Shown: positions 5,143 through 35,687 of the stretch, piece by piece | How the letters are laid out: each line of letters starts with the position of its first letter | Position numbering within the stretch: the stretch's first letter is position 1 | Source of the DNA: a virus | Taxonomy: Duplodnaviria; Heunggongvirae; Uroviricota; Caudoviricetes | IMG/VR virus record: IMGVR_UViG_2690315992_000010 | Direction: 5' to 3' (one strand) | DNA: 35,687 bases | Program-made: the position numbers and the translations under genes | The notes under the pieces: generated by a model | Told to the model about the DNA's origin: nothing | The model's input: only the letters and a program-made list of their open reading frames with translations | Database searches by the model: none

Positions 5143-5143
5143 G

Positions 5144-5314: not shown

Positions 5315-5333
5315 ATATTCACCCCTTTTATTA

Positions 5334-19229: not shown

Positions 19230-19302
19230 CTAATCACCTCACTATAAAACAGGAATAAGGGAGGCGTTAACCTCCCGCGTCATGTTTTATTTAGAGAAGC
19301 AA

Positions 19303-20136: not shown

Positions 20137-20145
20137 TATTACCCC

Positions 20146-20568
20146 TTAAAAACGCGCTACATAAGAAAATTTAAGGCTAAGTGTCCCAACGATACCCCCA
20201 TCACTAGAATCATCGTCATAATCGGTATTAGAAGCAACTGGAGTGATATCTGAAATAGAGAAGCCCAAATCTTTAAATCGTGGGTTATCCGGCTGAATCT
20301 GGATTATCTGGCAAATACCCTCATGAATTTTGGTTTCATGATTCTGAGAATACAACTGCATTTCGATAACGCATTCAGCTTGCATTGCATTACCACCACG
20401 AACACGCGTATAAGTCTCATTCATTCCAGTAATCCAACAAACCACGTCATCACTAAAGCCTTGCTGAGTTTGTTCTACGTTTAAAGCCAGACCTAAATCT
20501 TGTTCGATAATATCCTGCAAGGCGCGTTTGATTTTCAGTCTAGGCATATTATTAACGGTAGCGAGCAT
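20146..20568 (-). CDS. head-tail joining / tail terminator-like protein
   Basis: Synteny only. ATG 20568 preceded by GGGGGT RBS; track start 20649 is GTG further upstream. Confidence 0.35.
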   Translation of the reverse strand: MLATVNNMPRLKIKRALQDIIEQDLGLALNVEQTQQGFSDDVVCWITGMNETYTRVRGGNAMQAECVIEMQLYSQNHETKIHEGICQIIQIQPDNPRFKDLGFSISDITPVASNTDYDDDSSDGGIVGTLSLKFSYVARF

Positions 20569-20842
20569 GTGTACCCCCTGCACGAGCAATAAAGCAATCA
20601 GAAGTATTATCACCATTGCGCTTAACGTATTGAACTTTGAAGCGTTCACCGTCTACAATGACAACATCACCCTGATTTAAGTTTCCCTCACGACAAAATA
20701 GAAATTCTGATTCTGTAATTACCCCCTGTTCGTCGGTAGTAGTAATTTCATGGTAAGCACGAATTGATTTACCACCTTCCACCGAAAATACAGGAGCACT
20801 TTTAAACATTCTTGATAATTGTGATTCTGATAATTTGAACAT
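20552..20842 (-). CDS. head-tail connector / head completion protein
   Basis: 96-aa ORF immediately after capsid gene terminator; synteny only. Confidence 0.35.
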   Translation of the reverse strand: MFKLSESQLSRMFKSAPVFSVEGGKSIRAYHEITTTDEQGVITESEFLFCREGNLNQGDVVIVDGERFKVQYVKRNGDNTSDCFIARAGGTHARYR

Positions 20843-20872
20843 AGTTACCCCCTTTATGGAGTATTTACATAC

Positions 20873-20899
20873 AAAAAAGCCCCACCGTTAGGCAGGGCT
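20873..20899 (-). terminator. terminator/attenuator downstream of major capsid gene
   Basis: Minus-strand AGCCC...GGGCT hairpin followed by TTTTTT. Confidence 0.45.
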
Positions 20900-21036
20900 A
20901 ATTATTATTTTGCTTTAGTCTTACGTTCTTTTTTAACTGTGGCTTTCGCCGTAACCGTCTGGGAATCTTCTTCCGGTTCAGGAATCAGATTATCTTCCCC
21001 CAAATCGGGGGAAGGAACAGAAGGTTCTACGTTAGT

Positions 21037-23046: not shown

Positions 23047-23092
23047 TTAATCACCTTTAATTAATTGGGGGCATTGCGCCCCCCGTTGGTTA

Positions 23093-24604
23093 TTAGGGAT
23101 CGGCTGGGGAATTTTTTTCTTCACCCTCGCCATCAACGATAATATTTAGTGCGCTTTTTTCGGCTTGAATCTCTGAGAATACTTTTTCAGGATCATCACC
23201 ACGTTCCAATATAACGGCAGTACGTGATTTAAGTCCGTTATCAATTAAAGCAATCTCGGCGCTTACGTCTTTAAATGGATCGACGGATTCAAAACGCGGA
23301 CGAATAATAGTAGTGTTATCGATAATATGCGGAATTGCAGTAATACGAATCGGAACAATACCACGCGCGGAATAATGGCGTAGATATGCTTCAAAAATTG
23401 GCAATACCACTGTTTCAATTAATTTGTTTTGCAGTGCTTTAACTCGTGTGCGTTGAAGCAATTCGCCGTAGCGGGCTGCGCTGTAGTTGATCTGGCTGGT
23501 ATCACCAGTTAAGCCCTGTTTAAACACGCCTAAGCCCATTGATACGCTAGTAAACATCGCATCATTGAAGCTGTTAAAGTCATCGCCACTTTGGGCGCTC
23601 TGAATTGACTTAATCGTTGCCCCTTCCGGCAATTCCTGAATAGTACCCGGTGCAAAGTCCTGTACTACTTCCGGCGCTTGATATTGTTCATCCTCTTCAC
23701 CAGTATCAAAATCGTCACCAGAATCTTTCGGACGTTCGATAAAGCCCATAGAGCTAGCTGCAATGCGTTTCTGGATGATCGCAGTTTCGCGGAATGCATC
23801 TTGATGTGCGATATCCTTAATCACTGGCAGGAAGTCAGTCACACCACGCAGGGATTCGGCGGTAAGCGGTTGATAATAATGGCATACTTGCGAAGCATCG
23901 ACGCGATAGTTATCACCAGTGTAGGTCTGAGTCAGTAGGTTGACTTTACGAAACCAGTATGCCACGGGCTTCATCGTTTCTACGGCATACTCCACACCTT
24001 GATATATCGCACGTTCTTTGCTCACTTCACGGTTGAGAGTCCAGTCGCACTTATCAGCAGACAGGATAGAAACATTTATCTCATTGTTTTCTTTAGTTAA
24101 AACGATGAAACACTCACCACCCATAACGCGCTCACGTTCAGCCATTACCAGCAATTCACGGAAGTTAAAGCGACCGTTACGAGAGAAGCGTTTAGCATTC
24201 TGCGCCCACTTCCAGAAAGCATTCTCGATCTGCTTATTCAGTGCGCTATCAAGTTTGCCATTTGATTTAACGATTGACGGCTTCGGATCTAGGCCAGTAC
24301 CTACCACCATATCGGTGATGTATTGCGTGTATCGACTGCCTACGGAAGTGTTTAAGGCCAGAGTACGCCCCTGATCATAAAGGCGCTTACCGTTCGATTT
24401 GAGAGCCTTATTGAAGGTTCCGGTAATGGTGTCTTGTTGAAGCTGTCCATCAATGCGATCACCAACCAGACCTAAACTACGAGTCGCCAGAGATTTCTGG
24501 AATTTTTCTACTTGTTTGTCGATGAAAATTTTTGGTTGTTGTTGGCGGTGATTAGTTTTAACTGGAGTTTCTACCGCCTTTTTGCGTCGAAAAAGATTAA
24601 ACAT
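23093..24604 (-). CDS. portal protein
   Basis: 503 aa, located between terminase and capsid genes; acidic C-terminus; portal-like QINYSAARYGEL segment. Confidence 0.75.
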   Translation of the reverse strand: MFNLFRRKKAVETPVKTNHRQQQPKIFIDKQVEKFQKSLATRSLGLVGDRIDGQLQQDTITGTFNKALKSNGKRLYDQGRTLALNTSVGSRYTQYITDMVVGTGLDPKPSIVKSNGKLDSALNKQIENAFWKWAQNAKRFSRNGRFNFRELLVMAERERVMGGECFIVLTKENNEINVSILSADKCDWTLNREVSKERAIYQGVEYAVETMKPVAYWFRKVNLLTQTYTGDNYRVDASQVCHYYQPLTAESLRGVTDFLPVIKDIAHQDAFRETAIIQKRIAASSMGFIERPKDSGDDFDTGEEDEQYQAPEVVQDFAPGTIQELPEGATIKSIQSAQSGDDFNSFNDAMFTSVSMGLGVFKQGLTGDTSQINYSAARYGELLQRTRVKALQNKLIETVVLPIFEAYLRHYSARGIVPIRITAIPHIIDNTTIIRPRFESVDPFKDVSAEIALIDNGLKSRTAVILERGDDPEKVFSEIQAEKSALNIIVDGEGEEKNSPADP

Positions 24605-24614
24605 GATTTACCCC

Positions 24615-25109
24615 TTATCGCGTAAGACGTAATTTGATATTTTTAATCGGGCTAATTCCCTGTTTACGTCGTTCGGCTTGAATTAATTTTGATAACTGAC
24701 GTTCATAATCGACTTTTAGAGTCTGGAGAACAGCCAATGACTCATAGGCGAAAGTATTCCCTTTCACTGTCATTGCTGATAATGCGGCTTCGTCCCCAGA
24801 TAAACGGGCGAAAATAACTTGCTCGATTAAGGCGATAGTTTCCCGCAGATAGTCTTTTTTGGAGATTTTGGCGAATACTGGCAAAACAGTTAATTCCTGC
24901 ATTGATACCAGTTCTTCTTCCAAAGTGGTTACGATGGTATATTTACCTTCGGCAAAATCTAAGGTTTTAATCTCGTGATTAGCCGGAGTGTCATCAACCT
25001 GATAAATGATACCTTTACTATTTCCTACCTGAATTGTTACACCCTCTTCATTCGCCAGCGTGATTTTTTCACCTTTACGAATTACTAAGGGAATTAGTTC
25101 TAAACTCAT
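24615..25109 (-). CDS. hypothetical head-assembly protein (between terminase and portal)
   Basis: 164-aa ORF; synteny only. Confidence 0.4.
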   Translation of the reverse strand: MSLELIPLVIRKGEKITLANEEGVTIQVGNSKGIIYQVDDTPANHEIKTLDFAEGKYTIVTTLEEELVSMQELTVLPVFAKISKKDYLRETIALIEQVIFARLSGDEAALSAMTVKGNTFAYESLAVLQTLKVDYERQLSKLIQAERRKQGISPIKNIKLRLTR

Positions 25110-25181
25110 AATTACCCCTTATTTAATTGTTATTGGATTAACAATATTTAGGGGGAGGCCGCCCCGAAGGACGGCGAGTTA

Positions 25182-27086
25182 TTAGAACGATGTTACCCAG
25201 CTACGGCCTCTATTTGGGCGTCTGGCGATGTTTTTACGTTGTGGTCGTGTGATTGGCTTATTTTCTTCGATTTGCTCGTCAGATTGCGATTTAGGAGCTT
25301 CTACGGATTCTTCTGGTTCACGGTTCAAACTATCTTTGATGGCTTCGAGTTTTTCCCATGACATTTTATTGAGTACATGGCGATAACTAGCCACCGCATA
25401 GGTTAGGCAGTCCAAGCCCTCGTTGCGTTGCTGACCAACTTTTACCCAACGTGTGGTATTACCCTGCCGTTTCAACTGTTCAGATAGCAATTGCTCGCAG
25501 TAGTCATCAGGAACGTCACCAATCTGGAAGACCGTATGAGGATCGCTGTCTCTCAAGTTCCGGTTAATCATTTCACGGATCATCGTCTTAAGGTTGTTTA
25601 CGCCCAGAATTTTAAGGGTAAAACCGCCCGTTCTTGTGTCTTTTACCGGAAGGATTGGAGCATCAACATTACTTGCGCCCTTAATGGCGCATAGATTTTG
25701 CCACCTAGTGCAAAAGCGGTAGATCACTTGCGTAGCTCGTCCGTTTGATGAGTCCACGAAAGCGGATAGCATCGGGATTCGTTGACCGGATCGGGTATAG
25801 AATTTTGCTTTCAGGAAGTTGTAAAGCTGGTCATATGCTGGTGATTCGTGGCGTTCGCAGTTCACATCATAGAATGATCGGTGATCAACTACGCATATCC
25901 CTTTACGAGAGATACCCAGCAAGGTAGATTCCAGACGGTCTTTTTGCTGGTCAACTCCACCTACCAGAGCCAAAACATCATCAGGAATATTATCTAAGCT
26001 AATGTCAGTTTTCAGCGTTTCCAGTTCGTCGGCTGTGCGGTCTTCGTTAAGATCATCGAAGGTTTCACCGAGCACCACATTATAGAACGTTGCCAGCGAC
26101 ATATTCGCGTAGCTATCAGCAAAGTCCACCACACACGCACGGATAGAACTAAACGGAGACATAAGGCGGTTAGCATGAAAACCGATTACTTCCGCATTTG
26201 GTTCGGTGGCGACCCATTCTCCCTGAGCAACAGCACGGAGGCGATCTGGTTCTGACCAATCAGTTTCACATGACGGGCAACGGTAAACGGCTGTGTCTGG
26301 ATTCGGCAGTGATTTACCATTGATTACATGCCAATCAAAGAATACTCTACTCCATTCCATTACGTGTTTGTGTCCGCAATGCTGGCAAACGACGTGGTAT
26401 TTTCTTTTATCCGAGAGTTCCCATTGTTGGTTTATCGCCCCATCCCGCGAAGTTGGAGTAGAAGCAATTACGATCCTTGCATCATCACCGAAAGTGGTTG
26501 CGCGTTGTTCCGCTAGCTGGATCGGGTTCCCTTCGTCTGACTCATCAGCCGCATCAACTTCATCAAGAATAATCAAAGGTAGTGTTTTACCGCGAAGATG
26601 TGATGGACTATTCAACGACATGAAATACATGAATGATCCGTTACGAAGCTGAATAATCGATGAGTTGTTAACGGCATTGCGATCTGACTTGTCGGTGATC
26701 ATCGCCTTTAATTCTGGGGTTGCCTCTAATACTGGCTTCACCTTACCCGCGATCCAGCTATTCAACTCGCGGACGTTTGCTTGCAAAACACCTATATTAG
26801 TGGGGTTGCTGGCGATCCTATGAAAGATAATACCGTTTAGCACAAGAGTTTTACCCAACTGCGCCGAGCACTTTAGCACAATTTTTCGCCTATCTTCGGT
26901 GATCGCGTCCATCATCCCACGTTGGAAAGGATGCAATTTAATTAGCGATCCGGCTTTAACACCATCGGTTGCAACTACATTAGCCTCTACCCATTCGCTA
27001 GGTTTCATGGCTTTAGGTGGGCGAATTGCAGCAGAGATATTTCTGAGAATCTTTTTTAATTTTGCCTTATTAGAAATCAGTTTCAT
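25182..27086 (-). CDS. terminase large subunit (GpA family)
   Basis: 634 aa; Walker A-like KCSAQLGKT, IASTPT motif, Cys-rich zinc-finger-like segment (CQHCGH...CPSC), size similar to lambda gpA; GAGGGTAA RBS before ATG 27086. Confidence 0.8.
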   Translation of the reverse strand: MKLISNKAKLKKILRNISAAIRPPKAMKPSEWVEANVVATDGVKAGSLIKLHPFQRGMMDAITEDRRKIVLKCSAQLGKTLVLNGIIFHRIASNPTNIGVLQANVRELNSWIAGKVKPVLEATPELKAMITDKSDRNAVNNSSIIQLRNGSFMYFMSLNSPSHLRGKTLPLIILDEVDAADESDEGNPIQLAEQRATTFGDDARIVIASTPTSRDGAINQQWELSDKRKYHVVCQHCGHKHVMEWSRVFFDWHVINGKSLPNPDTAVYRCPSCETDWSEPDRLRAVAQGEWVATEPNAEVIGFHANRLMSPFSSIRACVVDFADSYANMSLATFYNVVLGETFDDLNEDRTADELETLKTDISLDNIPDDVLALVGGVDQQKDRLESTLLGISRKGICVVDHRSFYDVNCERHESPAYDQLYNFLKAKFYTRSGQRIPMLSAFVDSSNGRATQVIYRFCTRWQNLCAIKGASNVDAPILPVKDTRTGGFTLKILGVNNLKTMIREMINRNLRDSDPHTVFQIGDVPDDYCEQLLSEQLKRQGNTTRWVKVGQQRNEGLDCLTYAVASYRHVLNKMSWEKLEAIKDSLNREPEESVEAPKSQSDEQIEENKPITRPQRKNIARRPNRGRSWVTSF

Positions 27087-27129
27087 GTAATTACCCTCAT
27101 TACGAAATATGAAGGTATTTATTAAATTG

Positions 27130-27158
27130 TTGATATTTTGATAAATACGGGTATTAAG
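27130..27158 (+). promoter_or_regulatory. candidate sigma70 promoter for rightward gene 27175 (divergent from terminase)
   Basis: TTGATA - 16 bp - TATTAA upstream of AAGGGGGGG RBS. Confidence 0.3.
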
Positions 27159-27174
27159 ATTTAAGGGGGGGTGT

Positions 27175-27780
27175 ATGCTAATTAATCAGCAACAAAGAGA
27201 TGCATTAGAATTAGCCTTTTCTTGTTGTACCGATCATGAATATCGTTTGCCAGTTAAGCACCATCACAAGAAGACTGATTACACAACATCTGGCTTTAGT
27301 CGTGAGGAAGCTAAACAGATTTTAATCGAGTTGTATCGCGATCATGGGTATACCGATATTCATAACTTCTTTAAGAAGCATCGTACATCACAGACAGAGT
27401 TTAATAGAGTTCGTGAATGGTTTGATTTTGACATTAAGCGATTCTATCGAGTAGATGACGGTCCTATCTATCGGTTGCAGTGGACACCGATTAGGGAAGT
27501 GCTTAAACAGAAGAGATTGAATCATGCCATTACACGCTATCGTAATGTGGCTTTTAAGAAAGGCTATGGTGATTCAAGGGAATTGTTTGTAGAACTCGCT
27601 AACGTGCGATATAGCCACTATTACAGGAATCCTAAAGAGTTCTTCGAAGTGCTGCGCAAGGTTGATATTAGTCGGGGTACATATTATTCACGGTTGAAGA
27701 AGTACGGGATTAAGGCAGAGTTCTTTATGTCGGTTGACGATGGAGAACTTTTTCCGATAAAATGTAAGTCCTCTAAATAA
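27175..27780 (+). CDS. helix-turn-helix protein of unknown function (paralogue family member 1)
   Basis: 201 aa; contains FSREEAKQILIELYRD and C-terminal ISRGTYYSRLKKYGI segments that recur in the two small proteins at 27810 and 31471. Confidence 0.5.
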   Translation: MLINQQQRDALELAFSCCTDHEYRLPVKHHHKKTDYTTSGFSREEAKQILIELYRDHGYTDIHNFFKKHRTSQTEFNRVREWFDFDIKRFYRVDDGPIYRLQWTPIREVLKQKRLNHAITRYRNVAFKKGYGDSRELFVELANVRYSHYYRNPKEFFEVLRKVDISRGTYYSRLKKYGIKAEFFMSVDDGELFPIKCKSSK

Positions 27781-27809
27781 AGGTGAACATTCACTTTAAT
27801 TTGGAGAAA

Positions 27810-28043
27810 ATGACTATGACTACTAAAGCTACTCGCGGTCGCCCTGCCCGTTTTAACGCTGAACAGATGGCTGATATTGCCTACGCTTATTATACAGCGG
27901 ATCGTGGTAAGGAAGCGAAAGAACAGATTCTTAGTGAACATGGGATCTCAATCGCCCAATTCTATAAGAATATGAAGAAGTTGGACATTAAATTCTATGT
28001 TCAGATCGGTGATGGTCAGATCGTAGAAGCAACAGGTTTTTGA
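27810..28043 (+). CDS. small helix-turn-helix DNA-binding protein (paralogue 2)
   Basis: 77 aa from ATG 27810 (GGAG RBS); RGRPARFNAEQMADIAYAYY...ISIAQFYKNMKKLDI. Track start 27783 is GTG. Confidence 0.5.
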   Translation: MTMTTKATRGRPARFNAEQMADIAYAYYTADRGKEAKEQILSEHGISIAQFYKNMKKLDIKFYVQIGDGQIVEATGF

Positions 28044-28058
28044 GTTTTGATTCTCTTT

Positions 28059-28082
28059 GCCACTCTTCGGAGTGGCTTTTTT
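28059..28082 (+). terminator. intrinsic terminator
   Basis: GCCACTC-ttcg-GAGTGGC followed by TTTTTTG. Confidence 0.7.
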
Positions 28083-28203
28083 GTATGTAAAACAATCGGC
28101 GCAAAACTGCGCTCATTTCTAAGTTGAGTCCAAATCTGGACTGATCTATAGATGCATCCAAATCTGGAGGGATGCGCTTAAAGTTCAGCGCATCTACAGA
28201 TAC

Positions 28204-28228
28204 AAAAAAGCCCCTGAAATTCAGGGGC
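28204..28228 (-). terminator. intrinsic (bidirectional) terminator after Rha operon
   Basis: AAAAAA-GCCCCTGAA-at-TTCAGGGGC-AAAAATT; its right half is the TTCAGGGGCAAAAAT motif that forms the iteron array at 30.7-30.9 kb. Confidence 0.65.
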
Positions 28229-28236
28229 AAAAATTA

Positions 28237-29070
28237 TTACAGTCCGAAGACTTCCAGAGAGCCAGCATTCTGACGAATCAGCAAAGCAGTGTTATTAATG
28301 ATTGCTCGTGAGTTATTCGGCTGTGGCAATTTCAAAGTTGCGGCCTTTTCTTCTTCAAGCAATCCGAGTTTTACGAGATGCGGGATAGCATCAGCAGTGA
28401 ACTCGATCTGACCGTGTGCCGACATACGAGCGAACATATAGCCAGGAGGAAGCAGATCATAGCCTTTAGGCTTACCAGAAGCATCCAGACGACGCTCAAG
28501 AACACCAGCAGCACATAAACCTTTCAGAATCATTTGTACCTTCGTAGAGCCTCGTTTTTCGCCTAATAAGCGGCTAAGACTGTGTGCATCAATAGCTTTA
28601 CGGATATGAAGATCAACTAATTGTTCTTTTTCTTGAATCAGTTGTTCGTTTGCGGCTTCTAATTCCATTGCCTCACGAATCCAATCGAGCTTAGTCATGT
28701 TTGCGTATGGGTTGACTTGCTGAGAACGCAGTTTTTCATTTTCTTCTTTCAGTCGTTTCCATTCCTGAATAACAACCATTCGACGCTTAACATCGTAACC
28801 AGTGACAAGAGTCAGAGTCATTTCTTCGTCTAGTTGATATTCGTTTTGTTCGCGTCCGTATTGGTCAAAATAGATGACGCGAAACTTCGCGTGATCTTCA
28901 TAACCTAGAGCATTCAACATCTTAGTTATATCAACTTTAACTTTGTGGTGTTCTTTTCCGGTAAATTCAGCGATCTGACGAGAAGACATGGTCAGTGGTT
29001 TGGTGTTATCAACAACCAGAGACACGGAAGCAGTTTTAACAGCAGTATTCATAGTAGTAACAGTATTCAT
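28237..29070 (-). CDS. Rha-family phage regulatory protein / antirepressor
   Basis: N-terminal LTMSSRQIAEFTGKEHHKVKVDI matches the Rha-domain signature; ~150-aa C-terminal antirepressor-like domain. Confidence 0.65.
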   Translation of the reverse strand: MNTVTTMNTAVKTASVSLVVDNTKPLTMSSRQIAEFTGKEHHKVKVDITKMLNALGYEDHAKFRVIYFDQYGREQNEYQLDEEMTLTLVTGYDVKRRMVVIQEWKRLKEENEKLRSQQVNPYANMTKLDWIREAMELEAANEQLIQEKEQLVDLHIRKAIDAHSLSRLLGEKRGSTKVQMILKGLCAAGVLERRLDASGKPKGYDLLPPGYMFARMSAHGQIEFTADAIPHLVKLGLLEEEKAATLKLPQPNNSRAIINNTALLIRQNAGSLEVFGL

Positions 29071-29159
29071 AGTAAAAATTCCCCTTAAACGGTTTAGTGA
29101 TTTGGTCCTCCTAGTTCCGGCATCTCAACCGGAACAATTTTATTTATGATAGAAATTTA

Positions 29160-29492
29160 TTACCAATCGATTTCTACTTGGTCTTCTTCATAATAAGGAA
29201 TCGCATATTCATAACGCCAATTTTCGATGATTTCACGTTCTTCATTAGTAAGAAGGTGATTGTTAACTGGAGTCGCATTGTGATTACCAGCTTCGAATTG
29301 CTCGCGAACTTCCAGCATTGCATGAATACCAGTTAAGGTCATCAGATCAAACGGAACATGCATACTACGGGAGATAGTTTCACGGGATACACCCCAATCA
29401 TTTTCTACATGGCTAGGGGTTACAGAAACGGTTTTGCCGGAGATTTTAACAGTCCAGTCATACAGGGATTTAGTGATGGTAAATTCTTTCAT
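29160..29492 (-). CDS. hypothetical protein
   Basis: 110-aa ORF with AGAGGA RBS, first gene downstream of promoter at 29549-29577. Confidence 0.5.
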   Translation of the reverse strand: MKEFTITKSLYDWTVKISGKTVSVTPSHVENDWGVSRETISRSMHVPFDLMTLTGIHAMLEVREQFEAGNHNATPVNNHLLTNEEREIIENWRYEYAIPYYEEDQVEIDW

Positions 29493-29548
29493 GTTACATC
29501 CTCTTTACAAATCTAGGTCAAATAGGTTCAAAGTTGTCAAGCGCGATA

Positions 29549-29577
29549 ATCATAAAAAAGTCAGAAATTTTTGTCAA
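29549..29577 (-). promoter_or_regulatory. candidate sigma70 promoter (leftward) overlapped by palindromic operator
   Basis: Minus-strand -35 TTGACA (29577-29572), 17-bp spacer, -10 TATGAT (29554-29549). Palindrome TTGTCAA-tacccc-TTGACAA at 29571-29590 overlaps the -35. Confidence 0.4.
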
Positions 29578-29612
29578 TACCCCTTGACAAGACGCCAAAG
29601 GGTTGACCTAAC

Positions 29613-30071
29613 TTACAGCATATCTAAGCCTTCATCGTAACCGTAGAAGCCACCGTGAGAAGAGAAAGCGATTGGTGCGTAGTCTTCGTCTTCCTCATCT
29701 TGTTCTGGGGCTTCCTGAGCGGTTTCTTTACCGTAATTAAACATTGCTTCATCCAGTTCACGAAGAGTCAAGAAGCTACCCAGGTCAATGTCACCGGAAC
29801 GGACTTGAAACGGCAGATCATCACGAACAATAATTGCTGGTAGATTCTGGTACTTTAAGCGTTCTTCATCGGTGAAGACGTTAACAACAATGGTCGGCTT
29901 CTTATTACGGCAAAACGCATACCATGCACTAGAGAAATGGGATTCATCAGAGTTGAAAAGGATGTTATAACCACGTTCACGGAACATCTTCATTAACTTG
30001 TCATTGTGGAAGCTATCAGAATCCAGACCCAGAAGGATAAAAGGAGTAGTGGTAGTCATCTTGTGGTTCAT
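29613..30071 (-). CDS. hypothetical protein with acidic C-terminal tail
   Basis: 152 aa, GAGGA RBS; C-terminus EAPEQDEEDEDYAP; no domain recognised. Confidence 0.5.
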   Translation of the reverse strand: MNHKMTTTTPFILLGLDSDSFHNDKLMKMFRERGYNILFNSDESHFSSAWYAFCRNKKPTIVVNVFTDEERLKYQNLPAIIVRDDLPFQVRSGDIDLGSFLTLRELDEAMFNYGKETAQEAPEQDEEDEDYAPIAFSSHGGFYGYDEGLDML

Positions 30072-30713
30072 AGTGGAAATCCTCTAAAAGAAAGTGAATC
30101 AAACAAATTACACTAGTATTTATAACGAGAATTTTTTATCTATTTGGAAGGGATTGGTATTCAGTCGGGCATAGCCCTCCTTCATAGATTTTGATTAAAT
30201 CATCATCAAAACGAAGAAGTATCTTTAGAATATAAGAATCTTTCTTTCGAAGAAAGAATAATCAGGAAGCAATTTCAGCAACCGCAGGTTGCGATCCCGA
30301 AGGGATAACCAATACCTTTCTAGAAAGTGATTGTTACTCACTTCGTTCGTTTACTAGAATCAGTTATCATCTAGTATTAAAATCCCTTTCTAAGAAAATC
30401 CTTTCAAAAGTGATTCTCGATGCCACGCAGTGGCGTCGCAGACGTTTGAGAGTGAGCGAAGCGAGCGAGCAAACTAGTTAATTCCTTCTAAGACCATCTA
30501 GTATCATCTAGTTTAAATTAGTTGTTACTAGAAGTAATTGGTTAGCGCTACGCGCAGTCGGGCAAAGCCCTCCTAATATCTTTTTGGTTATTTTTGGTTT
30601 TACACATGAGCGTAGCGAATGTGTTATATAATATCTATGCACGCCCGATTCCCCGTTTTTACCCCTCACTAAGTTAATGTTTTATAAAGAGTTTTTCTTA
30701 CCAATCCTTTTCG

Positions 30714-30906
30714 GGGGCAAATTTCAGGGGCAAAAATTAGATTTTAAGGGGCAATTATTGGCATTTCAGGGGCAAAAATGAGGGGCAAAATCACTGTTTC
30801 CCAGAATTTCAGGGGCAAAAATAGTGGGTTTCAGGGGCAAAAATGGGATAGTGGAATCTTGGGTATTTTGGTTCGGGGGCAAAATTCAGAATTTCAGGGG
30901 CAATTC
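30714..30906. repeat. array of ~9 direct GGGGCAA(A/T) iterons (5 copies of full TTTCAGGGGCAAAAAT)
   Basis: Core starts near 30715, 30727, 30749, 30770, 30782, 30811, 30832, 30876, 30897; spacings mostly 12 or 21 bp; non-coding. Confidence 0.6.
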
Positions 30907-30993
30907 CCATCAAATATTTTGATAGAAAATTCTTGTATATTATTTAATCAAAAAATCACCAAAAAGTGGCGTAAGTTAATGATTTAAAAAGAA

Positions 30994-31019
30994 TTGTCAA
31001 AAGGTCTCCGTGCTATAAT
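30994..31019 (+). promoter_or_regulatory. candidate extended -10 promoter (rightward)
   Basis: TTGTCAA at 30994-31000 and TGcTATAAT at 31011-31019. Confidence 0.35.
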
Positions 31020-31099
31020 AGGTTATAAAGGTTGATAATCCTGATCTACCATTTTCAAACAAAAATTTTGATAGTCATTTCTCGCTTAGGTCAAGTGTA

Positions 31100-31128
31100 T
31101 TGACAACTGTCAAGGATTATTTTATACT
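31100..31128 (+). promoter_or_regulatory. candidate strong sigma70 promoter (rightward) with palindromic -35 region
   Basis: TTGACA (31100-31105), 17-bp spacer, TATACT (31123-31128); -35 lies in palindrome TTGACAACTGTCAA. Confidence 0.5.
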
Positions 31129-31263
31129 TTTTCTCACTGGTGGGGGTTGAAATTTTCTAAACAGTCCCCATATAGATGATAAGCAAGAATTTCCACGTTA
31201 TAAATACATGTGTGAAATGATTGTTCACTTCTGAAAATCTCCTGATCCACTGCTAATTCATAC

Positions 31264-31291
31264 AGCACTGGTTAGATATACAGTGCTTTTT
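31264..31291 (+). terminator. intrinsic terminator-like hairpin (possible end of a ~160-nt small RNA)
   Basis: AGCACTG-gttagatata-CAGTGCT followed by TTTT. Confidence 0.4.
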
Positions 31292-31415
31292 CGGTTGAAT
31301 ATTGTACGAATTGATTAATAATTAATCTTCTCTTTAGCAATTCGTGCTCCCACTGATCGGATATACAGTGGTTTTACAGGGTTTTCTGAAAATCATTTTA
31401 TAAATACAAGTGTTC

Positions 31416-31436
31416 AGAGCGAAATGCTCTTTTTTA
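31416..31436 (+). terminator. attenuator hairpin immediately upstream of gene 31471
   Basis: AGAGC-gaaat-GCTCT followed by TTTTTT. Confidence 0.45.
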
Positions 31437-31470
31437 AGAAATTATTAATCCACATGTGAGGAATCGACTG

Positions 31471-31650
31471 ATGGCTAGACCTGTTAAGTTCACTCGTGAA
31501 ATGATTGTTGATATTGCTAAACGCTTTTACAGCGACACTGAGCGAGGCGGGGAAAACTTCTTTAAGAAGGAAGGAATTGATAGAAGCGGATTCTACAAGC
31601 TAATGAAGAAATACGAAATTCAGGTAAAGATTAACGTTCAAGTTTGTTAA
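31471..31650 (+). CDS. small helix-turn-helix DNA-binding protein (paralogue 3)
   Basis: 59 aa from ATG 31471 (GAGGA RBS); ARPVKFTREMIVDIAKRFY...IDRSGFYKLMKKYEI parallels the 27810 protein. Track start 31456 is GTG. Confidence 0.5.
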   Translation: MARPVKFTREMIVDIAKRFYSDTERGGENFFKKEGIDRSGFYKLMKKYEIQVKINVQVC

Positions 31651-31765
31651 TCCACTTTCACTGAGAATTATATGATGGCTTTAAAAAAAGAAAAAGCCTC
31701 CCTTGTTGCAGCAAAGGAGGCTTGAAATGAACAATTAAAACTAACTTTCTACAGGAGTATTTATA

Positions 31766-32710
31766 ATGTTATTTTCCGCTAACTTTTTCACTAACGAAGT
31801 AACCAACGCTAAAGCAGTTATCAAATTTGGCACCGAAGCAAACAAGAAGATTCAGCCGAAAGTTGTTGTTCATGTTTCCTTTGCGCAGCAGAAATCCGCT
31901 TTCGCTGGCTTTAAAGCACATCGTGAAGCACTGATCGCGGCTGGCTTTGGTGTTGACGGTAAACTGCCTAACGGCATTCGTAAAGCAATCGACCGCGTTA
32001 AACCTGCTAAAGACGTTGCAGTAGACCACATCGTTACTTTCACCGTTAAGAACTCTTCTGAACTGTTCCACCTAGTGATTGCTGGTGATACTGCTATCGT
32101 TTCCGCTCCTAACATGGATTTTCAGGATACCGCTGATTGCAACATTACCTTTGGTCGTCGTAAAGAAGTTACCGGAAAAGCTAAACTGAACTTCACCAAA
32201 TCCGGCAATCCTTACTTTGCTGTATTCTTTAACAGCCACGCTACTGAGAAAGAAGTAGTAGAACTGGTTGCATATGAAGGTGAAGAAAAAGCACGTATTG
32301 AATCTTGCGACGCTTTCGTAGAACTGGAAGCACAGGTTAATGCTGTTTCTCCGGTTGCTGTTGAAGATCGTTTCTCTGCACTGGAAGCACAGATCGCAGA
32401 ACTGAAAGCTGCGCTGGAAGAAAAAGACCAGATCATCGAAGCACAGAAAGCTGAGATTGAAGAACTGAAAGCTAAAGAAGTTGCTCCGGTGGCAGTAGTT
32501 GAAAATGCGGCTGATGAGGCCGCAAATGATGAAGTAGAAGTGAAAATCGATGTGATGCGTGATCCGATGGCTGCACTGCAATTGCTTCGTTCTTTTAAGG
32601 GCAAATCTCATTTTTCTAGTGATGCGGTAGACGAGGAAGAAGAACAGAAACGCAATGTTGCAATGCTTCATGATGAAATGTACGGTACTAACTTTTCTTA
32701 CTGCCAATAA
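31766..32710 (+). CDS. hypothetical protein, apparently highly expressed (N-terminal globular part, C-terminal Ala/Glu-rich coiled-coil-like region)
   Basis: 314 aa; consensus AGGAG RBS 8 nt before ATG; codon usage strongly skewed to CTG/CGT/GGT/GAA/AAA/GCT; bracketed by terminators. No family recognised. Confidence 0.6.
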   Translation: MLFSANFFTNEVTNAKAVIKFGTEANKKIQPKVVVHVSFAQQKSAFAGFKAHREALIAAGFGVDGKLPNGIRKAIDRVKPAKDVAVDHIVTFTVKNSSELFHLVIAGDTAIVSAPNMDFQDTADCNITFGRRKEVTGKAKLNFTKSGNPYFAVFFNSHATEKEVVELVAYEGEEKARIESCDAFVELEAQVNAVSPVAVEDRFSALEAQIAELKAALEEKDQIIEAQKAEIEELKAKEVAPVAVVENAADEAANDEVEVKIDVMRDPMAALQLLRSFKGKSHFSSDAVDEEEEQKRNVAMLHDEMYGTNFSYCQ

Positions 32711-32714
32711 AAAA

Positions 32715-32732
32715 GGGACTCCGAAGAGTCCC
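32715..32732. terminator. bidirectional intrinsic terminator
   Basis: AAAAAA-GGGACTC-cgaa-GAGTCCC-TAGTAAGTTT; stronger T-tract on minus strand. Confidence 0.55.
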
Positions 32733-32806
32733 TAGTAAGTTTAGGTTAGGTTTGCACAACAAAGATGAACATAATGCTACATTATTCTTTAAAGCCAGAA
32801 AAATAA

Positions 32807-32824
32807 CCGCCTCTTTCGAGGCGG
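32807..32824 (-). terminator. intrinsic terminator (minus strand)
   Basis: CCGCCT-ctttcg-AGGCGG with minus-strand T-tract (TTATTTTTCT). Confidence 0.5.
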
Positions 32825-32981
32825 GAGGATTAATACTCAATCTATACTTGTTATGTTTTTATGTTGTATAGATCCTGACTATGAAAACACTGTACTGGAG
32901 TGTGTTTTATGGCTTTTAATCGGGAATCCTCAAAGAAGATCCCCTGTTAATAACCATAAGGAGAAAAGGCAGATTACACTA

Positions 32982-33155
32982 TTATTTAGTATCCTTTTTA
33001 CAGCAACTAAAAAGAATAAACAAAAAGAAGCATACCCAGCCGTAAGGCGTACCGATTAGAAATTTGAAAAACACCACCAGCGATATAAAAATCAATTTAA
33101 TGCCAGCGACGATAGTCAAAAACAGCAGAGTAGCAAAGTAGACAAAAAGATCCAT
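32982..33155 (-). CDS. small hydrophobic membrane protein, ~57 aa (two predicted TM segments)
   Basis: ATG ~33155 with AGAGGA RBS; MDLFVYFATLLFLTIVAGIKLIFISLVVFFKFLIGTPYGWVCFFLFILF...; not in ORF track. Confidence 0.25.
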   Translation of the reverse strand: MDLFVYFATLLFLTIVAGIKLIFISLVVFFKFLIGTPYGWVCFFLFILFSCCKKDTK

Positions 33156-33208
33156 AGATAATCCTCTTTGAAAACGACCATCATCTATAGTTCAATTCAT
33201 CGATTTAA

Positions 33209-33310
33209 TTAATTATACTTGAAAGCGTTACACAAAGTAGAAATGCCAATATGTGCCAGTGAATATACGATAGTTAATCCTACAGCCAGATAAATCAAAA
33301 ATTCAACCAT
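33209..33310 (-). CDS. small hydrophobic peptide, ~33 aa
   Basis: ATG ~33310 with GAGGA RBS; MVEFLIYLAVGLTIVYSLAHIGISTLCNAFKYN; not in ORF track. Confidence 0.2.
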   Translation of the reverse strand: MVEFLIYLAVGLTIVYSLAHIGISTLCNAFKYN

Positions 33311-33408
33311 AGGTAAATCCTCAAATAAGAAAAAGGTTAGCGGGGGATGTTCTCCCCCGTAGGCGTTGACCCATTCAACACCCTTCACATATATTTAGTA
33401 TCTAATTT

Positions 33409-33966
33409 TTACGACACATCAAATTCATCATCTTCTTCTGGTTCTTGTTCTTCCGGTTCATCCATTAATGGTAATTCTTCTTCCTCGTCTTCTCCCAAAT
33501 CTGCATTTTCGAACAAGTCCCCTACTTCATTTAAACGACGCTCGATGATCTCCCTTAGCTTATTCTTCAATGTTTTCTGGTCAGTTGCAGATTCGAGAAT
33601 TTCTAAAGCGTCGATTGTGGCGATCTGCAAAATAGTCTGTTTCACTTTCCCGCAGTATTCCGCTAGTTGCTGTTCTACATAACCGACAGGAATCAGGAGA
33701 TTCATTTTTTCCTGGTTCTCTCGTTCGGCTGCATCTGCCATTGCTCTTTCTCTGCGGAGACGTTCTTGATCAATCGCTTCTTTGATTGAAGTTTGTTTAA
33801 GTGGGTTAATTACGTTCTTTAGCACCCAATCGCAACCTTCCTTTGCTGGAACACGCCTCTTATTGGTATTGTAAGGTAGTCCCCTTTCTAACCATCGCTT
33901 ACCGCCACCATTCAATGTATAACCATATAAACGGGAAATTTCTGTAAGGGTTAATTCTTCTTTCAT
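33409..33966 (-). CDS. terminase small subunit (Nu1-like) candidate
   Basis: N-terminal HTH segment LTLTEISRLYGYTLNGGGKRWLERGLPY resembles the Nu1 DNA-binding domain pattern; central coiled-coil; strongly acidic C-terminus; GGAGGA RBS; palindromes and GC-rich site just upstream. Confidence 0.5.
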   Translation of the reverse strand: MKEELTLTEISRLYGYTLNGGGKRWLERGLPYNTNKRRVPAKEGCDWVLKNVINPLKQTSIKEAIDQERLRRERAMADAAERENQEKMNLLIPVGYVEQQLAEYCGKVKQTILQIATIDALEILESATDQKTLKNKLREIIERRLNEVGDLFENADLGEDEEEELPLMDEPEEQEPEEDDEFDVS

Positions 33967-33984
33967 TGGTTATCCTCCATTAAA

Positions 33985-34043
33985 TTTGCGTAATTTTATT
34001 TATTGGTTTTACGCAAAATCTAAGCGCCTAAAACGCGTTTTAG
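33985..34043. promoter_or_regulatory. palindromic protein-binding sites upstream of small terminase gene (cosB-like candidates)
   Basis: Inverted repeat TTTGCGTAA-N15-TTACGCAAA (33985-34017) and perfect 16-bp palindrome CTAAAACGCGTTTTAG (34028-34043). Confidence 0.4.
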
Positions 34044-34090
34044 CGAAGGGAAAGATCCAGTAATGGTAAGGGTTAGGAAGGGGGTTAATA

Positions 34091-34109
34091 GTCGCGTAGC
34101 GACCGCGCC
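34091..34109. other. candidate cos nicking region (GC-rich island with dyad symmetry)
   Basis: GTCGCGTAGCGACCGCGCC in AT-rich context ~125-145 bp upstream of the Nu1-like start, the position expected for cosN in lambda-like genomes. Inference only. Confidence 0.25.
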
Positions 34110-34324
34110 ATGAGTGAAGTGATCACGTTTTAAAATCTCACACGCACATCAAATACCGGGGTGCCGAAAACTCCCTTTATTTCATCCGTGGAACAGTACC
34201 TTTTTAATTTGTCAAGCATTAATTTCTTAATTTAATTACTAAATCTCATCCCAATAATTGAAAAAATATCAAAAATCAATAAAGTAAGCATCTAAAAGTC
34301 AGTCCATACCAAAAGAGGTATAAA

Positions 34325-35104
34325 ATGAAAAACATTATCGCTGCTATCGTGCTTTCTGCTACTGCTTTCGGTGCTGATGCTGCGTCCTTTGATTGCACTA
34401 AGGCTACTACCAAATCAGAGAAGTTTATTTGTGCTAACGAGTCTATCTCCGCACTGGATTCGAAACTTCATGAAGTATATGTTAAAGCTGTTAAGATTGA
34501 TCCATCTCTGAAACAAGAGCAACGCAACTGGAATAAAACTGTTCGTGATACAATGATCAATATCGGGCAGATTCAGCCACTGGAGGCTGTATACAACGCT
34601 CAAATCCAAAACTTGATGAATGTATTATCTAAAGAAGAAACCGCGTCAGAGAGCGATTCAGAGACTTCTGCGAAGGTTGAAGAAGAACAACCGAAACAGG
34701 AAGAAGTAAAGAAACTGAATGTTACCGCGATTTACGCATGTACTACAAAATTTACATGGAAAGTTATCGATGGTGAGGAAACAGAAGCTGTAAAAGATAA
34801 ACTCTACGGAAACAAAACTTTTGATAATAACGGCGGTAAACTTAAGATCAAAATGGTAGACGATGTTCCGGTATCTTTTGTGTATTCCGACAAGTATGAT
34901 GTTTATAAATCAAGTCTCAAGCCATCTAAAGAGAATCCAAACGCAATGGAAGGTAAATCCAAACAGGATACTATTGGACGTGTTAACACTTATAACATCT
35001 GGGTAAGCAAAAAAGGTGACATGCGTCTTGAAGTAATTGAACCAAAATTTGATTCTGAATATAAACACACTCAATTTGCATGTGACATGGTAGACGCAGA
35101 GTAA
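34325..35104 (+). CDS. secreted protein with DUF1311 / LprI-like N-terminal domain
   Basis: Signal peptide MKNIIAAIVLSATAFGADA; SFDCTKATTKSEKFICANESISALDSKLHEVY matches the conserved Cys-containing DUF1311 signature; AGAGG RBS. Confidence 0.55.
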   Translation: MKNIIAAIVLSATAFGADAASFDCTKATTKSEKFICANESISALDSKLHEVYVKAVKIDPSLKQEQRNWNKTVRDTMINIGQIQPLEAVYNAQIQNLMNVLSKEETASESDSETSAKVEEEQPKQEEVKKLNVTAIYACTTKFTWKVIDGEETEAVKDKLYGNKTFDNNGGKLKIKMVDDVPVSFVYSDKYDVYKSSLKPSKENPNAMEGKSKQDTIGRVNTYNIWVSKKGDMRLEVIEPKFDSEYKHTQFACDMVDAE

Positions 35105-35336
35105 GAGGTGAAATGATGCAATTCAATAGCATGAAGATTACTCAAAAATGGTGGGATGCGATGAAAGCTAACCACCAGAACGATATTAATTAAGTAACAT
35201 TTTAGATATACAGCACCCAGCTAACAGATCACCTTTTATGGATTTCATTATAACCCCTTTGATCTGGAAACTATGTTAATTAGTTGATTTCTAAGCCTTG
35301 TCCTTGTGATGGGGCTTTTTATTGCAAAATTTTTAG

Positions 35337-35687
35337 TTATTTTGGGTTGACTACATTCGGGTTGCCAATTCGCCAGGCTAACTCTTGCTGAGTGATTTCT
35401 GACTGTAAAAAAGCATTTAACAGCAATACTTTAGAGGCGACGCTCAAAGGTACTTCAATAAAGTGATCATGACTATTTAATGGCGAAGGTAACGGGATAA
35501 GCTCGTTATCTTCAAAATAAAAATCAAATGCGGTCAGTAAAGCATCTTTTGCCGCTTCCATCGCTTCAGCGACAGTTTCGCCCTGCGTCAACGCTTCAGG
35601 GATATCCACAAAAGAAACCATATAACCGCCTTCCGGCGCGGGTGTAAGAGTGACGGGATAACGCATAATTTCGACTGTCTCTCGCAT
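35337..35687 (-). CDS. hicB: HicB-family antitoxin, N-terminal domain only; C-terminal DNA-binding domain apparently truncated at junction with phage-like DNA
   Basis: MRYPVTLTPAPEGGYMVSFVDIPEALTQGETVAEAMEAAKDALLTAF... recognised as HicB N-terminal domain (recalled as near-identical to E. coli HicB; not verified). ORF ends ...ITQQELAWRIGNPNVVNPK* inside what should be the first helix of the HTH. Base composition and codon usage look more host-like here. Confidence 0.55.
   Translation of the reverse strand: MRETVEIMRYPVTLTPAPEGGYMVSFVDIPEALTQGETVAEAMEAAKDALLTAFDFYFEDNELIPLPSPLNSHDHFIEVPLSVASKVLLLNAFLQSEITQQELAWRIGNPNVVNPK

What the first reader, a model, noticed from the sequence alone, without database searches (positions are those of the whole stretch)
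35300..35687. Phage-like DNA abuts a truncated hicB antitoxin gene
The HicB N-terminal (toxin-binding) domain is intact, but the reading frame ends after ...ITQQELAWRIG with eight unrelated residues, exactly where sequence character changes to AT-rich phage-like DNA. That implies insertion into the 3' part of hicB, removing the DNA-binding domain. This could deregulate the hicAB operon or make the prophage a switch on a toxin-antitoxin locus.
Basis: partly seen in the sequence, partly recalled or inferred. Interest (0 to 1): 0.7.

Follow-up and report, generated by a model that had tools for sequence, protein, structure and literature searches.

The report
Prophage inserted into antitoxin gene hicB
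The window is a ~35 kb E. coli prophage that its own serine integrase inserted into the chromosomal antitoxin gene hicB, removing the DNA-binding end; this is an ordinary prophage–host junction, and in this strain the partner toxin gene hicA was already dead.

Summary
Window 35364-35687 (-) holds the first 108 codons of chromosomal E. coli hicB. Eight phage-derived codons (NPNVVNPK) and a stop at 35337 follow.

The break is a site-specific attL junction. Aligning attB, attL and attR places the crossover at a TT dinucleotide (35362-35363), which is also the centre of dyad symmetry of the inferred attP. A 559-aa large serine recombinase lies at 1496-3175. In the near-identical lysogen 14EC029, the missing 3' hicB piece sits 42 bp beyond window position 1. 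Removing that prophage in silico restores wild-type hicB.

About 35-40 of 5,426 complete E. coli genomes have this site occupied, by independent integrations. Sister phages with related integrases split ycdX or codB instead, so hicB looks like one more conserved, dispensable landing site.

The truncation removes the recognition helix and the rest of the HTH. The idea that this deregulates the toxin or acts as a switch is not supported for this strain. A contig identical to the window carries a 22-bp frameshifting deletion in hicA, and that allele is common in non-lysogens. Most other lysogens keep hicA intact, so an effect there remains untested.

Verdict: new member of a known kind, low-to-moderate interest.

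The parts
35364..35687 (-). 5' part of chromosomal antitoxin gene hicB: native codons 1-108 (MRETVEIM...ELA[W]RIG). It contains the HicA-binding N-terminal domain and helices 1-2 of the HTH. R105W at 35373-35375 is private to this strain.
   Evidence: 97-99.7% nucleotide identity to hicB of 5,322 of 5,426 complete E. coli genomes. Alignment to K-12. Pfam PF15919 at aa 10-74. Codon table. PDB 6HPB, 6HPC and 6U0I are this protein.
35362..35366 (.). Core TTGCC shared by attB and attP. The inferred crossover dinucleotide is TT at 35362-35363, inside codon 109 of hicB.
   Evidence: attB/attL/attR alignment. Variant attR sequences GGTTT-CCC and GGTTT-CAC in IMG/VR proviruses restrict the exchange to TT. 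The dyad symmetry of the inferred attP peaks at 12/20 exactly at this TT, against 9 or fewer at every other centre.
35337..35361 (-). Phage-derived end of the reading frame: the third base of codon 109, codons 110-116 (tail NPNVVNPK) and the TAA stop.
   Evidence: The same tail is present in 7 lysogens. A second attP-arm type gives the tail KPKCCKPQ in 4 others.
35344..35361 (.). Phage (P) arm of attL, GGGTTGACTACATTCGGG. It is an imperfect inverted repeat of the P' arm, which lies just outside the left end of the window.
35293..35317 (+). Terminator-like hairpin followed by a T-run. It would end rightward phage transcription 45 bp before the junction.
   Evidence: 2 terminator-like sites found against 0.3 expected in shuffles. 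This is a consensus match only.
1496..3175 (+). Large serine recombinase (integrase), 559 aa, starting MKTKLYSYIRFSSMRQ. The mechanical ORF begins at a TTG at 1481.
   Evidence: Pfam Resolvase (aa 11-158), Recombinase (203-291) and Zn_ribbon_recom (315-373). 558/559 aa identical to the PGAP 'recombinase family protein' of 14EC029.
1..35361 (.). Prophage body. About 42 further phage bases and attR lie left of window position 1, giving a total of about 35.4 kb.
   Evidence: Collinear with the 34,397-bp prophage of 14EC029 that lies between the two hicB fragments.
3710..27086 (-). Late gene block: endolysin, tail tip/fibre, distal tail protein, tape measure, major tail protein, T-even-like long tail fibre, major head protein, portal and large terminase. 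A homing endonuclease is inserted at 9930-10703.
   Evidence: PHROGs hits.
34325..35104 (+). Last phage gene before attL: a secreted LprI-family (lysozyme-inhibitor-like) protein, probably a moron.
   Evidence: Pfam PF07007 and PGAP annotation.

Best explanation
The window is almost the whole of a ~35.4 kb temperate prophage from an E. coli phage lineage that has no sequenced isolate. The phage's own large serine recombinase joined a short, roughly symmetric attP to a ~40-50 bp attB inside chromosomal hicB. Strand exchange occurred at a non-palindromic TT in codon 109. The result is attL (window 35344-35366 onward) and attR (about 42 bp left of window position 1).

The hicB reading frame keeps 108 native codons, runs 8 codons into phage DNA, and stops. 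The product keeps the HicA-binding N-terminal domain. It lacks the recognition helix and the C-terminal helices of the Xre-type HTH, which bind the operator and dimerise HicB, so it cannot autorepress. That last step is inferred from the domain map and from the published structure and regulation.

In the lineage the window comes from, hicA already carries a 22-bp frameshifting deletion, so there is no toxin left to deregulate. hicB serves the phage as a highly conserved, dispensable integration site, as ycdX and codB do for sister phages. Conservative excision by the serine integrase would restore hicB exactly. This was shown in silico only.
For: Junction anatomy:
- attB, attL and attR share only TTGCC. 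Variant lysogens narrow the exchange to TT.
- The symmetry of the inferred attP peaks at that TT.

Integrase:
- It has the Resolvase, Recombinase and zinc-ribbon domains and lies 1.5 kb from attR.

Split gene:
- PGAP annotates both hicB halves at the two ends of a 34,397-bp collinear prophage in 14EC029. Deleting the prophage in silico gives a HicB identical to K-12.

Site-specificity and independent events:
- 11 lysogens examined have the junction at the identical position, in different host hicB alleles (E3G; NSH>TNN/V>I) and with two attP-arm types.
- The 62-bp attB is uninterrupted in 4,997 of 5,426 genomes. 40 genomes show only a half-site.

Loss of the DNA-binding domain:
- HTH_3 at aa 95-141 is present only in the full-length protein.
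- The E. coli HicB C-terminal HTH mediates dimerisation and operator binding, and the N-terminal domain neutralises HicA (review PMC11594946; PDB 6HPB/6HPC).

hicA already dead here:
- Contig ERR178177_47 has 0 mismatches to window 33001-35687 and a 22-bp deletion in hicA.
- The same allele occurs in many non-lysogens. It is not enriched in lysogens: 8/35 against at least 692/5,288, Fisher p = 0.12.

Landing-site view:
- Sister prophages with 92-94% and 72-77% identical integrases split ycdX and codB.
Against: - There is no experimental evidence for integrase activity, excision or phage production.
- The 21-nt attP junction was not found in IMG/VR or in JGI metagenome contigs, so a free or circular phage form has not been observed.
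- The window does not contain attR. Its position is inferred from 14EC029 and from IMG/VR proviruses.
- Linking the window to the hicA-deleted contig rests on sequence identity over 2.7 kb plus the private W105, not on a known provenance.
- Whether the 116-aa HicB fragment is stable or still binds HicA is not known.
Confidence: 0.88

Rival explanations
1. Regulatory switch (active lysogeny). The prophage excises precisely under particular conditions, without killing the host, to restore full-length HicB and so toggles autoregulation of hicAB.
For: The prophage splits an ORF, and in silico excision restores a wild-type gene. The serine integrase gene is intact. Most lysogens keep hicA intact. 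Precedents exist for serine-recombinase elements in comK, sigK and spsM (my own knowledge).
Against: - In the window's lineage hicA is a pseudogene, so there is nothing to toggle.
- Occupancy is sporadic, about 40 of 5,037 genomes with the site, and not fixed in any visible lineage.
- Closely related phages use the unrelated genes ycdX and codB, so the target looks interchangeable.
- No excised attP form was found.
- A hicB deletion is viable in K-12 (PMC2215328), so restoration is not obviously required.
Confidence: 0.06
2. Selected lysogenic conversion. In hicA+ hosts, truncating HicB derepresses the HicB-controlled promoter and/or partly frees HicA. The resulting phenotype (lower envelope-stress responses, sigma-E independence, tolerance) would benefit lysogen or phage, so hicB would be targeted for its function.
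For: - Delta-ydcQ (hicB) lowers several envelope stress responses and suppresses rpoE lethality through toxin activation (PMC2215328; PMC11481867).
- The HTH is lost.
- One of the two E. coli hicAB promoters is repressed by HicB and yields antitoxin only (PMC11594946).
- 27 of 35 lysogens have hicA annotated as intact.
Against: This does not apply to the present strain, where hicA is frameshifted. There is no enrichment or depletion of dead hicA among lysogens. Sister phages target unrelated genes. The retained N-terminal domain may still neutralise HicA, which would leave little phenotype.
Confidence: 0.1
3. The hicB-like ORF is a phage-borne gene, for example an antitoxin mimic used against host defence, or the junction is an assembly or provirus-calling artefact.
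For: The window ends exactly at the ATG of the ORF and begins exactly at an ATG. Most related IMG/VR proviruses begin at that same ATG, which suggests automated provirus trimming at gene boundaries. Phage-encoded HicAB systems exist (PMC11594946).
Against: - The 326-bp hicB part is 97-99.7% identical to the chromosomal gene of 98% of complete E. coli genomes.
- Host synteny hicA-yncJ-rlhA continues beyond it.
- The host allele of the fragment varies with the host, not with the phage.
- The remaining 3' codons lie at the other prophage end.
- The junction is reproduced in 17 or more finished genomes.
Confidence: 0.01

Closest known systems
Large serine recombinase (serine integrase) prophages that integrate inside host ORFs: Listeria A118/phi10403S in comK, B. 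subtilis SPbeta in spsM, the skin element in sigK; the phiC31, Bxb1 and TP901-1 integrases
   Same: The integrase has the same three-domain architecture. attP is short and quasi-symmetric, and attB is simple, around a non-palindromic central dinucleotide. Integration is intragenic and splits the gene, and conservative excision would restore it exactly.
   Different: Sequence identity to any integrase in the collection of 50,697 phage records is 30.5% or less (Bcep176, E. coli phage Perceval and others). The target is a type II antitoxin gene. There is no evidence of developmentally or environmentally programmed excision. Occupancy is sporadic.
'Incomplete phage-like region' carrying ISApl1-mcr-1-pap2, reported as inserted between lysN (ydcR) and hicB in E. 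coli with chromosomal mcr-1 (PMC7700713)
   Same: Same chromosomal location, and the same kind of content (head, tail and fibre genes) with no close relative among known phages. It is very probably the same prophage family. The lysogens 14EC029 and 14EC017 found here are Chinese clinical isolates.
   Different: That paper describes the insertion as lying between two genes and the element as non-functional. It does not report the serine integrase, the att sites or the split of hicB. The window carries no mcr-1-sized ORF. I did not compare the sequences directly.
E. coli HicAB type II toxin-antitoxin system (PDB 6HPB, 6HPC, 6U0I)
   Same: The host part of the finding is this locus. The N-terminal HicA-neutralising domain is intact.
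   Different: The copy in the window lacks HTH helix 3 onward. The partner hicA in the matching contig is frameshifted. The locus is therefore a double remnant rather than a working TA system.
Sister prophages of the same family integrated in ycdX and in codB
   Same: Gene order is collinear and many proteins are identical. The integrases are 92-94% (ycdX type) and 72-77% (codB type) identical in aa sequence. The P' arm TAATATCATGTACCC is nearly identical in the hicB and ycdX types. All split a host ORF.
   Different: The attB differs. 33 of the 44 substitutions between the hicB-type and ycdX-type integrases fall in aa 195-350, the DNA-binding recombinase and zinc-ribbon domains.

Membership tests
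Large serine recombinase (serine integrase) integration system | N-terminal resolvase-type catalytic domain with the serine nucleophile motif | tested here: met
   Pfam PF00239 at aa 11-158, E = 2e-14. The N-terminus reads YIRFSSMRQ, matching the Y-x-R-x-S-x-x-x-Q pattern. That pattern is from my own knowledge.
Large serine recombinase (serine integrase) integration system | C-terminal recombinase domain plus zinc-ribbon domain, which distinguish the large from the small serine recombinases | tested here: met
   PF07508 at aa 203-291 and PF13408 at aa 315-373, in a protein of 559 aa.
Large serine recombinase (serine integrase) integration system | Short attP and attB sharing a non-palindromic central dinucleotide; attP arms form an imperfect inverted repeat; hybrid attL and attR with no target duplication beyond the core | tested here: met
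   The shared core is TTGCC, narrowed to TT by variant lysogens. Dyad symmetry is 12/20 at TT against 9 or fewer elsewhere. In silico excision is exact.
Large serine recombinase (serine integrase) integration system | Catalysis of attP x attB recombination; excision that depends on a recombination directionality factor | not testable with these tools
   No candidate directionality factor was identified. The attP junction is absent from IMG/VR and JGI metagenome contigs.
HicAB type II toxin-antitoxin locus (functional) | HicB with an N-terminal partial RNase H-like toxin-binding domain | tested here: met
   PF15919 at aa 10-74. Residues 1-108 are identical to PDB 6U0I and 6HPB apart from R105W.
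HicAB type II toxin-antitoxin locus (functional) | HicB C-terminal DNA-binding domain (HTH in E. coli) for autorepression | tested here: not met
   The HTH_3 hit at aa 95-141 is lost in the window's ORF. The frame leaves native sequence after G108.
HicAB type II toxin-antitoxin locus (functional) | Intact upstream hicA toxin gene | tested here: not met
   hicA lies outside the window. In the contig identical to the window it has a 22-bp frameshifting deletion, and PGAP marks the same allele 'frameshifted' in 14EC029. It is intact in 27 of 35 other lysogens by annotation.
Phage regulatory switch / active lysogeny | Prophage interrupts an ORF, and precise excision restores it | tested here: met
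   Shown in silico only: removing 34,397 bp in 14EC029 gives a HicB identical to K-12.
Phage regulatory switch / active lysogeny | Stable association of prophage and target gene across a lineage, with the restored gene's function needed under defined conditions | tested here: not met
   About 40 of 5,037 genomes are occupied, scattered over different host alleles. The toxin partner is dead in this lineage. Sister phages use other genes.
Phage regulatory switch / active lysogeny | Condition-triggered, non-lytic excision and re-integration | not testable with these tools
   This requires culture experiments.

The most novel reading that the evidence does not exclude
In the majority of lysogens that still have an intact hicA, reversible serine-integrase excision and re-integration could toggle HicB between a full-length autorepressor and a DNA-blind, monomeric antitoxin. 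The prophage would then act as a genetic switch on HicA activity and on the sigma-E/envelope-stress phenotypes known for hicB loss. A related point is better supported. The hicB-, ycdX- and codB-targeting integrases form a natural series of closely related enzymes with reprogrammed attB specificity, and the changes cluster in aa 195-350.
Probability: 0.07. Interest if true: 0.6.

Novelty: new member of a known kind. Interest (0 to 1): 0.25.

Why it matters
For annotation, the result explains a recurrent 'truncated hicB' pseudogene in E. coli. It also defines the exact ends, att sites and integrase of a prophage lineage that has no sequenced isolate and that one paper described only as an 'incomplete phage-like region' next to hicB carrying chromosomal mcr-1.

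For TA biology, the hicA+ lysogens are natural hicB(1-108) alleles. They could test whether the N-terminal domain alone neutralises HicA at native expression levels, and what loss of autorepression does.

For recombinase engineering, the hicB/ycdX/codB integrase series offers closely related enzymes with three different natural E. coli attB sites.

None of this changes current concepts.

Tried and rejected
1. hicA inactivation as a consequence of the insertion. This was suggested by the frameshifted hicA in 14EC029. I rejected it because the identical 22-bp deletion sits next to uninterrupted hicB in many genomes and is not enriched in lysogens.
2. Search for the excised or virion form through the attP junction 21-mer. 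There were no hits in IMG/VR or in JGI metagenome contigs.
3. IMG/VR relatives of the integrase. 28 loci were found. Most start at the same first-ORF ATG as the window and four retain attR with host flank, so they look like trimmed proviruses and none shows attP.
4. Identification of the phage by nucleotide similarity to 50,697 phage records. Only mosaic pieces matched: a T-even-like tail fibre, and 385 bp of the LprI gene. Protein searches gave TerL at 43% or less and integrase at 30.5% or less.
5. Rfam and tRNA scans of the window found nothing, so this is not a tRNA-type attachment site.
6. The W in ELAWRIG as part of the junction. Rejected: it is a single private substitution that the other lysogens examined lack.
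7. Literature searches for hicB as a prophage or serine-recombinase target. Nothing specific turned up except the mcr-1 paper.

Full report
OBSERVATION

The last ORF of the window (35337-35687, minus strand, 116 aa) starts exactly at the window's last base. Its first 108 residues match E. coli K-12 HicB in the 145-aa reading that begins MRETVEIM, apart from R105W. The last eight residues, NPNVVNPK, replace native KPKQEITR.... Pfam detects the HicB N-terminal domain (aa 10-74) in both the truncated and the full-length protein. It detects the HTH_3 domain (aa 95-141) only in the full-length one. The full-length protein is the one solved in PDB 6HPB, 6HPC and 6U0I. GC content falls from 44% in the hicB part to 35% in the 260 bp next to it. 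The description in the finding is therefore correct. The only corrections are that the W is a private substitution (window 35375) and that the break lies at 35362-35363.

WHAT IT IS

A megablast of window 35100-35687 against 5,426 complete E. coli genomes matched 5,322 of them over the hicB part only, starting at window 35356-35362. 17 genomes matched the whole query, and about 35 shared at least the phage-side ~80 bp.

In the near-identical lysogen 14EC029 (NZ_CP024141.1), PGAP annotates two hicB pseudogene fragments 34.4 kb apart. One is 'missing C-terminus', next to hicA-yncJ-rlhA. The other is 'missing N-terminus', next to ydcR. A collinear prophage lies between them.

Window position 1 is the ATG of the first phage ORF, 42 bp inside attR. 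The window is therefore the prophage minus those 42 bp, plus the 5' hicB fragment. Most related IMG/VR proviruses start at the same first-ORF ATG, which suggests the window came from automated provirus calling.

ATT SITES AND MECHANISM

The sequences, with the proposed exchange point marked, are:
- attB (K-12): ...CTCCTGTTTAGGT-TT-GCCAATTCGCCTGG...
- attL (window): ...GACTACATTCGGG-TT-GCCAATTCGCCAGG...
- attR (14EC029)...CTCCTGTTTAGGT-TT-GCCTAATATCATGTACCC...

Variant proviruses at the same site have attR GGTTT-CCCTAAT or GGTTT-CACTAAT. Together with the GGG of attL, these confine the exchange to the TT at window 35362-35363, the first two bases of codon 109. The reconstructed attP has its maximum dyad symmetry (12 of 20 positions) exactly at that TT, and no other centre exceeds 9. 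TT is non-palindromic, as directional integration requires.

The ORF at 1496-3175 is a 559-aa large serine recombinase with Resolvase, Recombinase and zinc-ribbon domains and an N-terminal YIRFSSMRQ motif. Removing the prophage in silico at TT in 14EC029 deletes 34,397 bp and yields a HicB identical to K-12.

The anatomy, including the crossover at TT, is read or deduced from the sequences. Catalysis, directionality and excision are inferred from what is established for serine integrases.

POPULATION PICTURE

The 62-bp attB is uninterrupted in 4,997 of 5,426 genomes, and 3,311 of those are at least 99% identical to the K-12 sequence. 40 genomes show only a half-site.

Eleven lysogens inspected all break at the same position. 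They differ in host hicB allele (E3G; NSH>TNN with V>I) and carry one of two attP left-arm types, giving the tails NPNVVNPK or KPKCCKPQ. This means several independent integrations.

The same phage family occurs with a 92-94% identical integrase inserted in ycdX. In strain 14EC007 it splits that gene into two PGAP pseudogene fragments. It also occurs with a 72-77% identical integrase inserted in codB. Of the 44 amino-acid differences between the hicB-type and ycdX-type integrases, 33 lie in residues 195-350, the DNA-binding domains.

The family habitually lands inside conserved, dispensable ORFs. Nothing indicates that hicB is chosen for its function.

CONSEQUENCES FOR HICAB

According to the HicAB review (PMC11594946), the N-terminal domain of HicB neutralises HicA. 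In E. coli the C-terminal HTH mediates dimerisation and binds the operator of one of the two hicAB promoters, whose transcript yields antitoxin only. The truncation removes HTH helix 3 onward, so loss of autorepression is expected. Neutralisation may persist. Both points are inferences.

A full hicB (ydcQ) deletion is viable in K-12. It lowers envelope-stress responses and suppresses rpoE lethality through toxin activation (PMC2215328; PMC11481867). Viability of hicA+ lysogens therefore does not prove that the fragment neutralises HicA.

For the window's own lineage the question is moot. A Logan contig (ERR178177_47) encodes exactly this 116-aa protein with W105 and has 0 mismatches to window 33001-35687. 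Its hicA carries a 22-bp deletion that frameshifts the gene. The same allele is marked 'frameshifted' in 14EC029.

That allele also sits beside uninterrupted hicB in at least ~690 genomes. It is not significantly enriched among lysogens: 8 of 35 against at least 692 of 5,288, Fisher p = 0.12, uncorrected for phylogeny. It therefore looks independent of the insertion rather than a response to it. In 27 of 35 lysogens hicA is annotated as intact, and 8 of these were confirmed individually. Any deregulation or switch effect would have to be sought in those strains.

THE PHAGE

PHROGs annotation gives an endolysin, tail tip and fibre proteins, a distal tail protein, a tape measure, a major tail protein, a long tail fibre whose C-terminal two thirds resemble the T-even gp37 type, a major head protein, a portal, a large terminase and an Ant/Rha-like regulator.

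No record among 50,697 sequenced phages is close. Nucleotide matches are limited to the tail-fibre segment (82-86% to Krischvirus/RB49-like phages) and to 385 bp of the LprI-family gene (about 96%). The best large terminase match is 43% aa identity and the best integrase match 30.5%. The attP junction was not found in IMG/VR or JGI metagenome contigs, so activity of the phage is unproven.

LITERATURE

I found no paper describing hicB as a serine-integrase attB. One short report (PMC7700713) describes a ~25.7 kb 'incomplete phage-like region' with ISApl1-mcr-1-pap2 'inserted between lysN and hicB' in 9 of 47 chromosomal mcr-1 E. coli. This is very probably the same element family, described without the integrase, the att sites or the gene split.

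VERDICT

The structural interpretation, insertion into hicB with loss of the DNA-binding domain, is correct. The functional speculation is not supported for this strain and remains untested for hicA+ lysogens.

This is a new member of a well-known kind: a serine-integrase prophage integrated inside a host ORF. Interest is modest. The more useful by-products are the exact att sites of an uncharacterised E. coli phage lineage and a natural series of related integrases with three different attB specificities.

Noticed in passing
L005/L034 (NZ_CP024131.1 2954000-2992206), L043, L044, L046; L045 (NZ_CP015229.1): Sister prophages of the same family split ycdX (integrase 92-94% aa identical) or codB (72-77%). 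33 of the 44 integrase differences between the hicB and ycdX types lie in aa 195-350. The ycdX attR is CATATTTGGGA-TT-CCCTAATATCATGTACCC and the attL is GACTACGTTCGGGT-TT-CCGGGATGGC. Strain UTME-9 carries both a hicB-site and a ycdX-site prophage.
   Followed up: partly
L047 2782-2976 (outside the window, upstream of hicB); L001 44106-44260: A 22-bp deletion in hicA, between the short repeats CCTGCG and ATTGCG, frameshifts the toxin gene. The allele is present in at least ~690 of 5,426 complete E. coli genomes, most of them with uninterrupted hicB. A sizeable minority of E. coli therefore has a toxin-less hicAB locus.
   Followed up: partly
window 35375: A private T>A change gives R105W in the remnant HicB (HTH helix 2). 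It is absent from the 10 other lysogens examined and from K-12. This would fit relaxed constraint in a locus that has lost both partners, but it is a single change.
   Followed up: yes
window 30071-31766, repeats at 30709-30905: A ~1.7 kb stretch has no ORF of 70 aa or more and holds about 10 copies of TTTCAGGGGCAA, mostly 21 bp apart. This is an iteron- or operator-like array, possibly the phage origin or an immunity region. No Rfam family matches. A comparable gap with no annotated gene exists in the ycdX-type prophage (L034 33592-34979).
   Followed up: partly
window 9930-10703 (-): A 257-aa homing endonuclease ORF (phrog_314) sits between tail genes. It is absent from the otherwise collinear prophage of 14EC029, which accounts for part of the length difference.
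   Followed up: no
window 15804-19229 (-), especially ~15980-18366: The tail fibre has a C-terminal region like the T-even long tail fibre distal subunit (gp37), with 82-86% nucleotide identity to Krischvirus/RB49-like virulent phages. The relatives in 14EC029 and 14EC007 additionally carry a gp38-like adhesin gene that the window lacks. This indicates receptor-binding module exchange between temperate and virulent phages.
   Followed up: no
window 34320-34706: The first ~385 bp of the LprI-family gene, the last phage gene before attL, are 95-97% identical in nucleotide sequence to hypothetical genes of RB49-like virulent phages. The rest of the gene has no such match.
   Followed up: no
window 35362-35488 versus other genomes (H63-H69): A class of E. 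coli genomes matches only ~127 bp of the hicB 5' fragment (window 35362-35488) at 97% and nothing further upstream. This suggests a divergent or recombinant hicAB 5' region in those lineages.
   Followed up: no
L044 2160-2200 (NZ_CP069522.1): In one ycdX-site lysogen, the ~20 host-side bases next to the core (ATCAATTGGATATCGTGGA-TT) differ at about 7 positions from the other ycdX lysogens (ATCTATTTCATATTTGGGA-TT). That is more than ordinary allelic variation and is unexplained.
   Followed up: no
literature: PMC7700713: The commonest chromosomal mcr-1 context in E. coli (9 of 47 isolates) is a 'phage-like region' at lysN(ydcR)/hicB. This is probably the prophage family described here, which would make it a vehicle that fixes colistin resistance in the chromosome. 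The window itself carries no mcr-1-sized ORF.
   Followed up: partly
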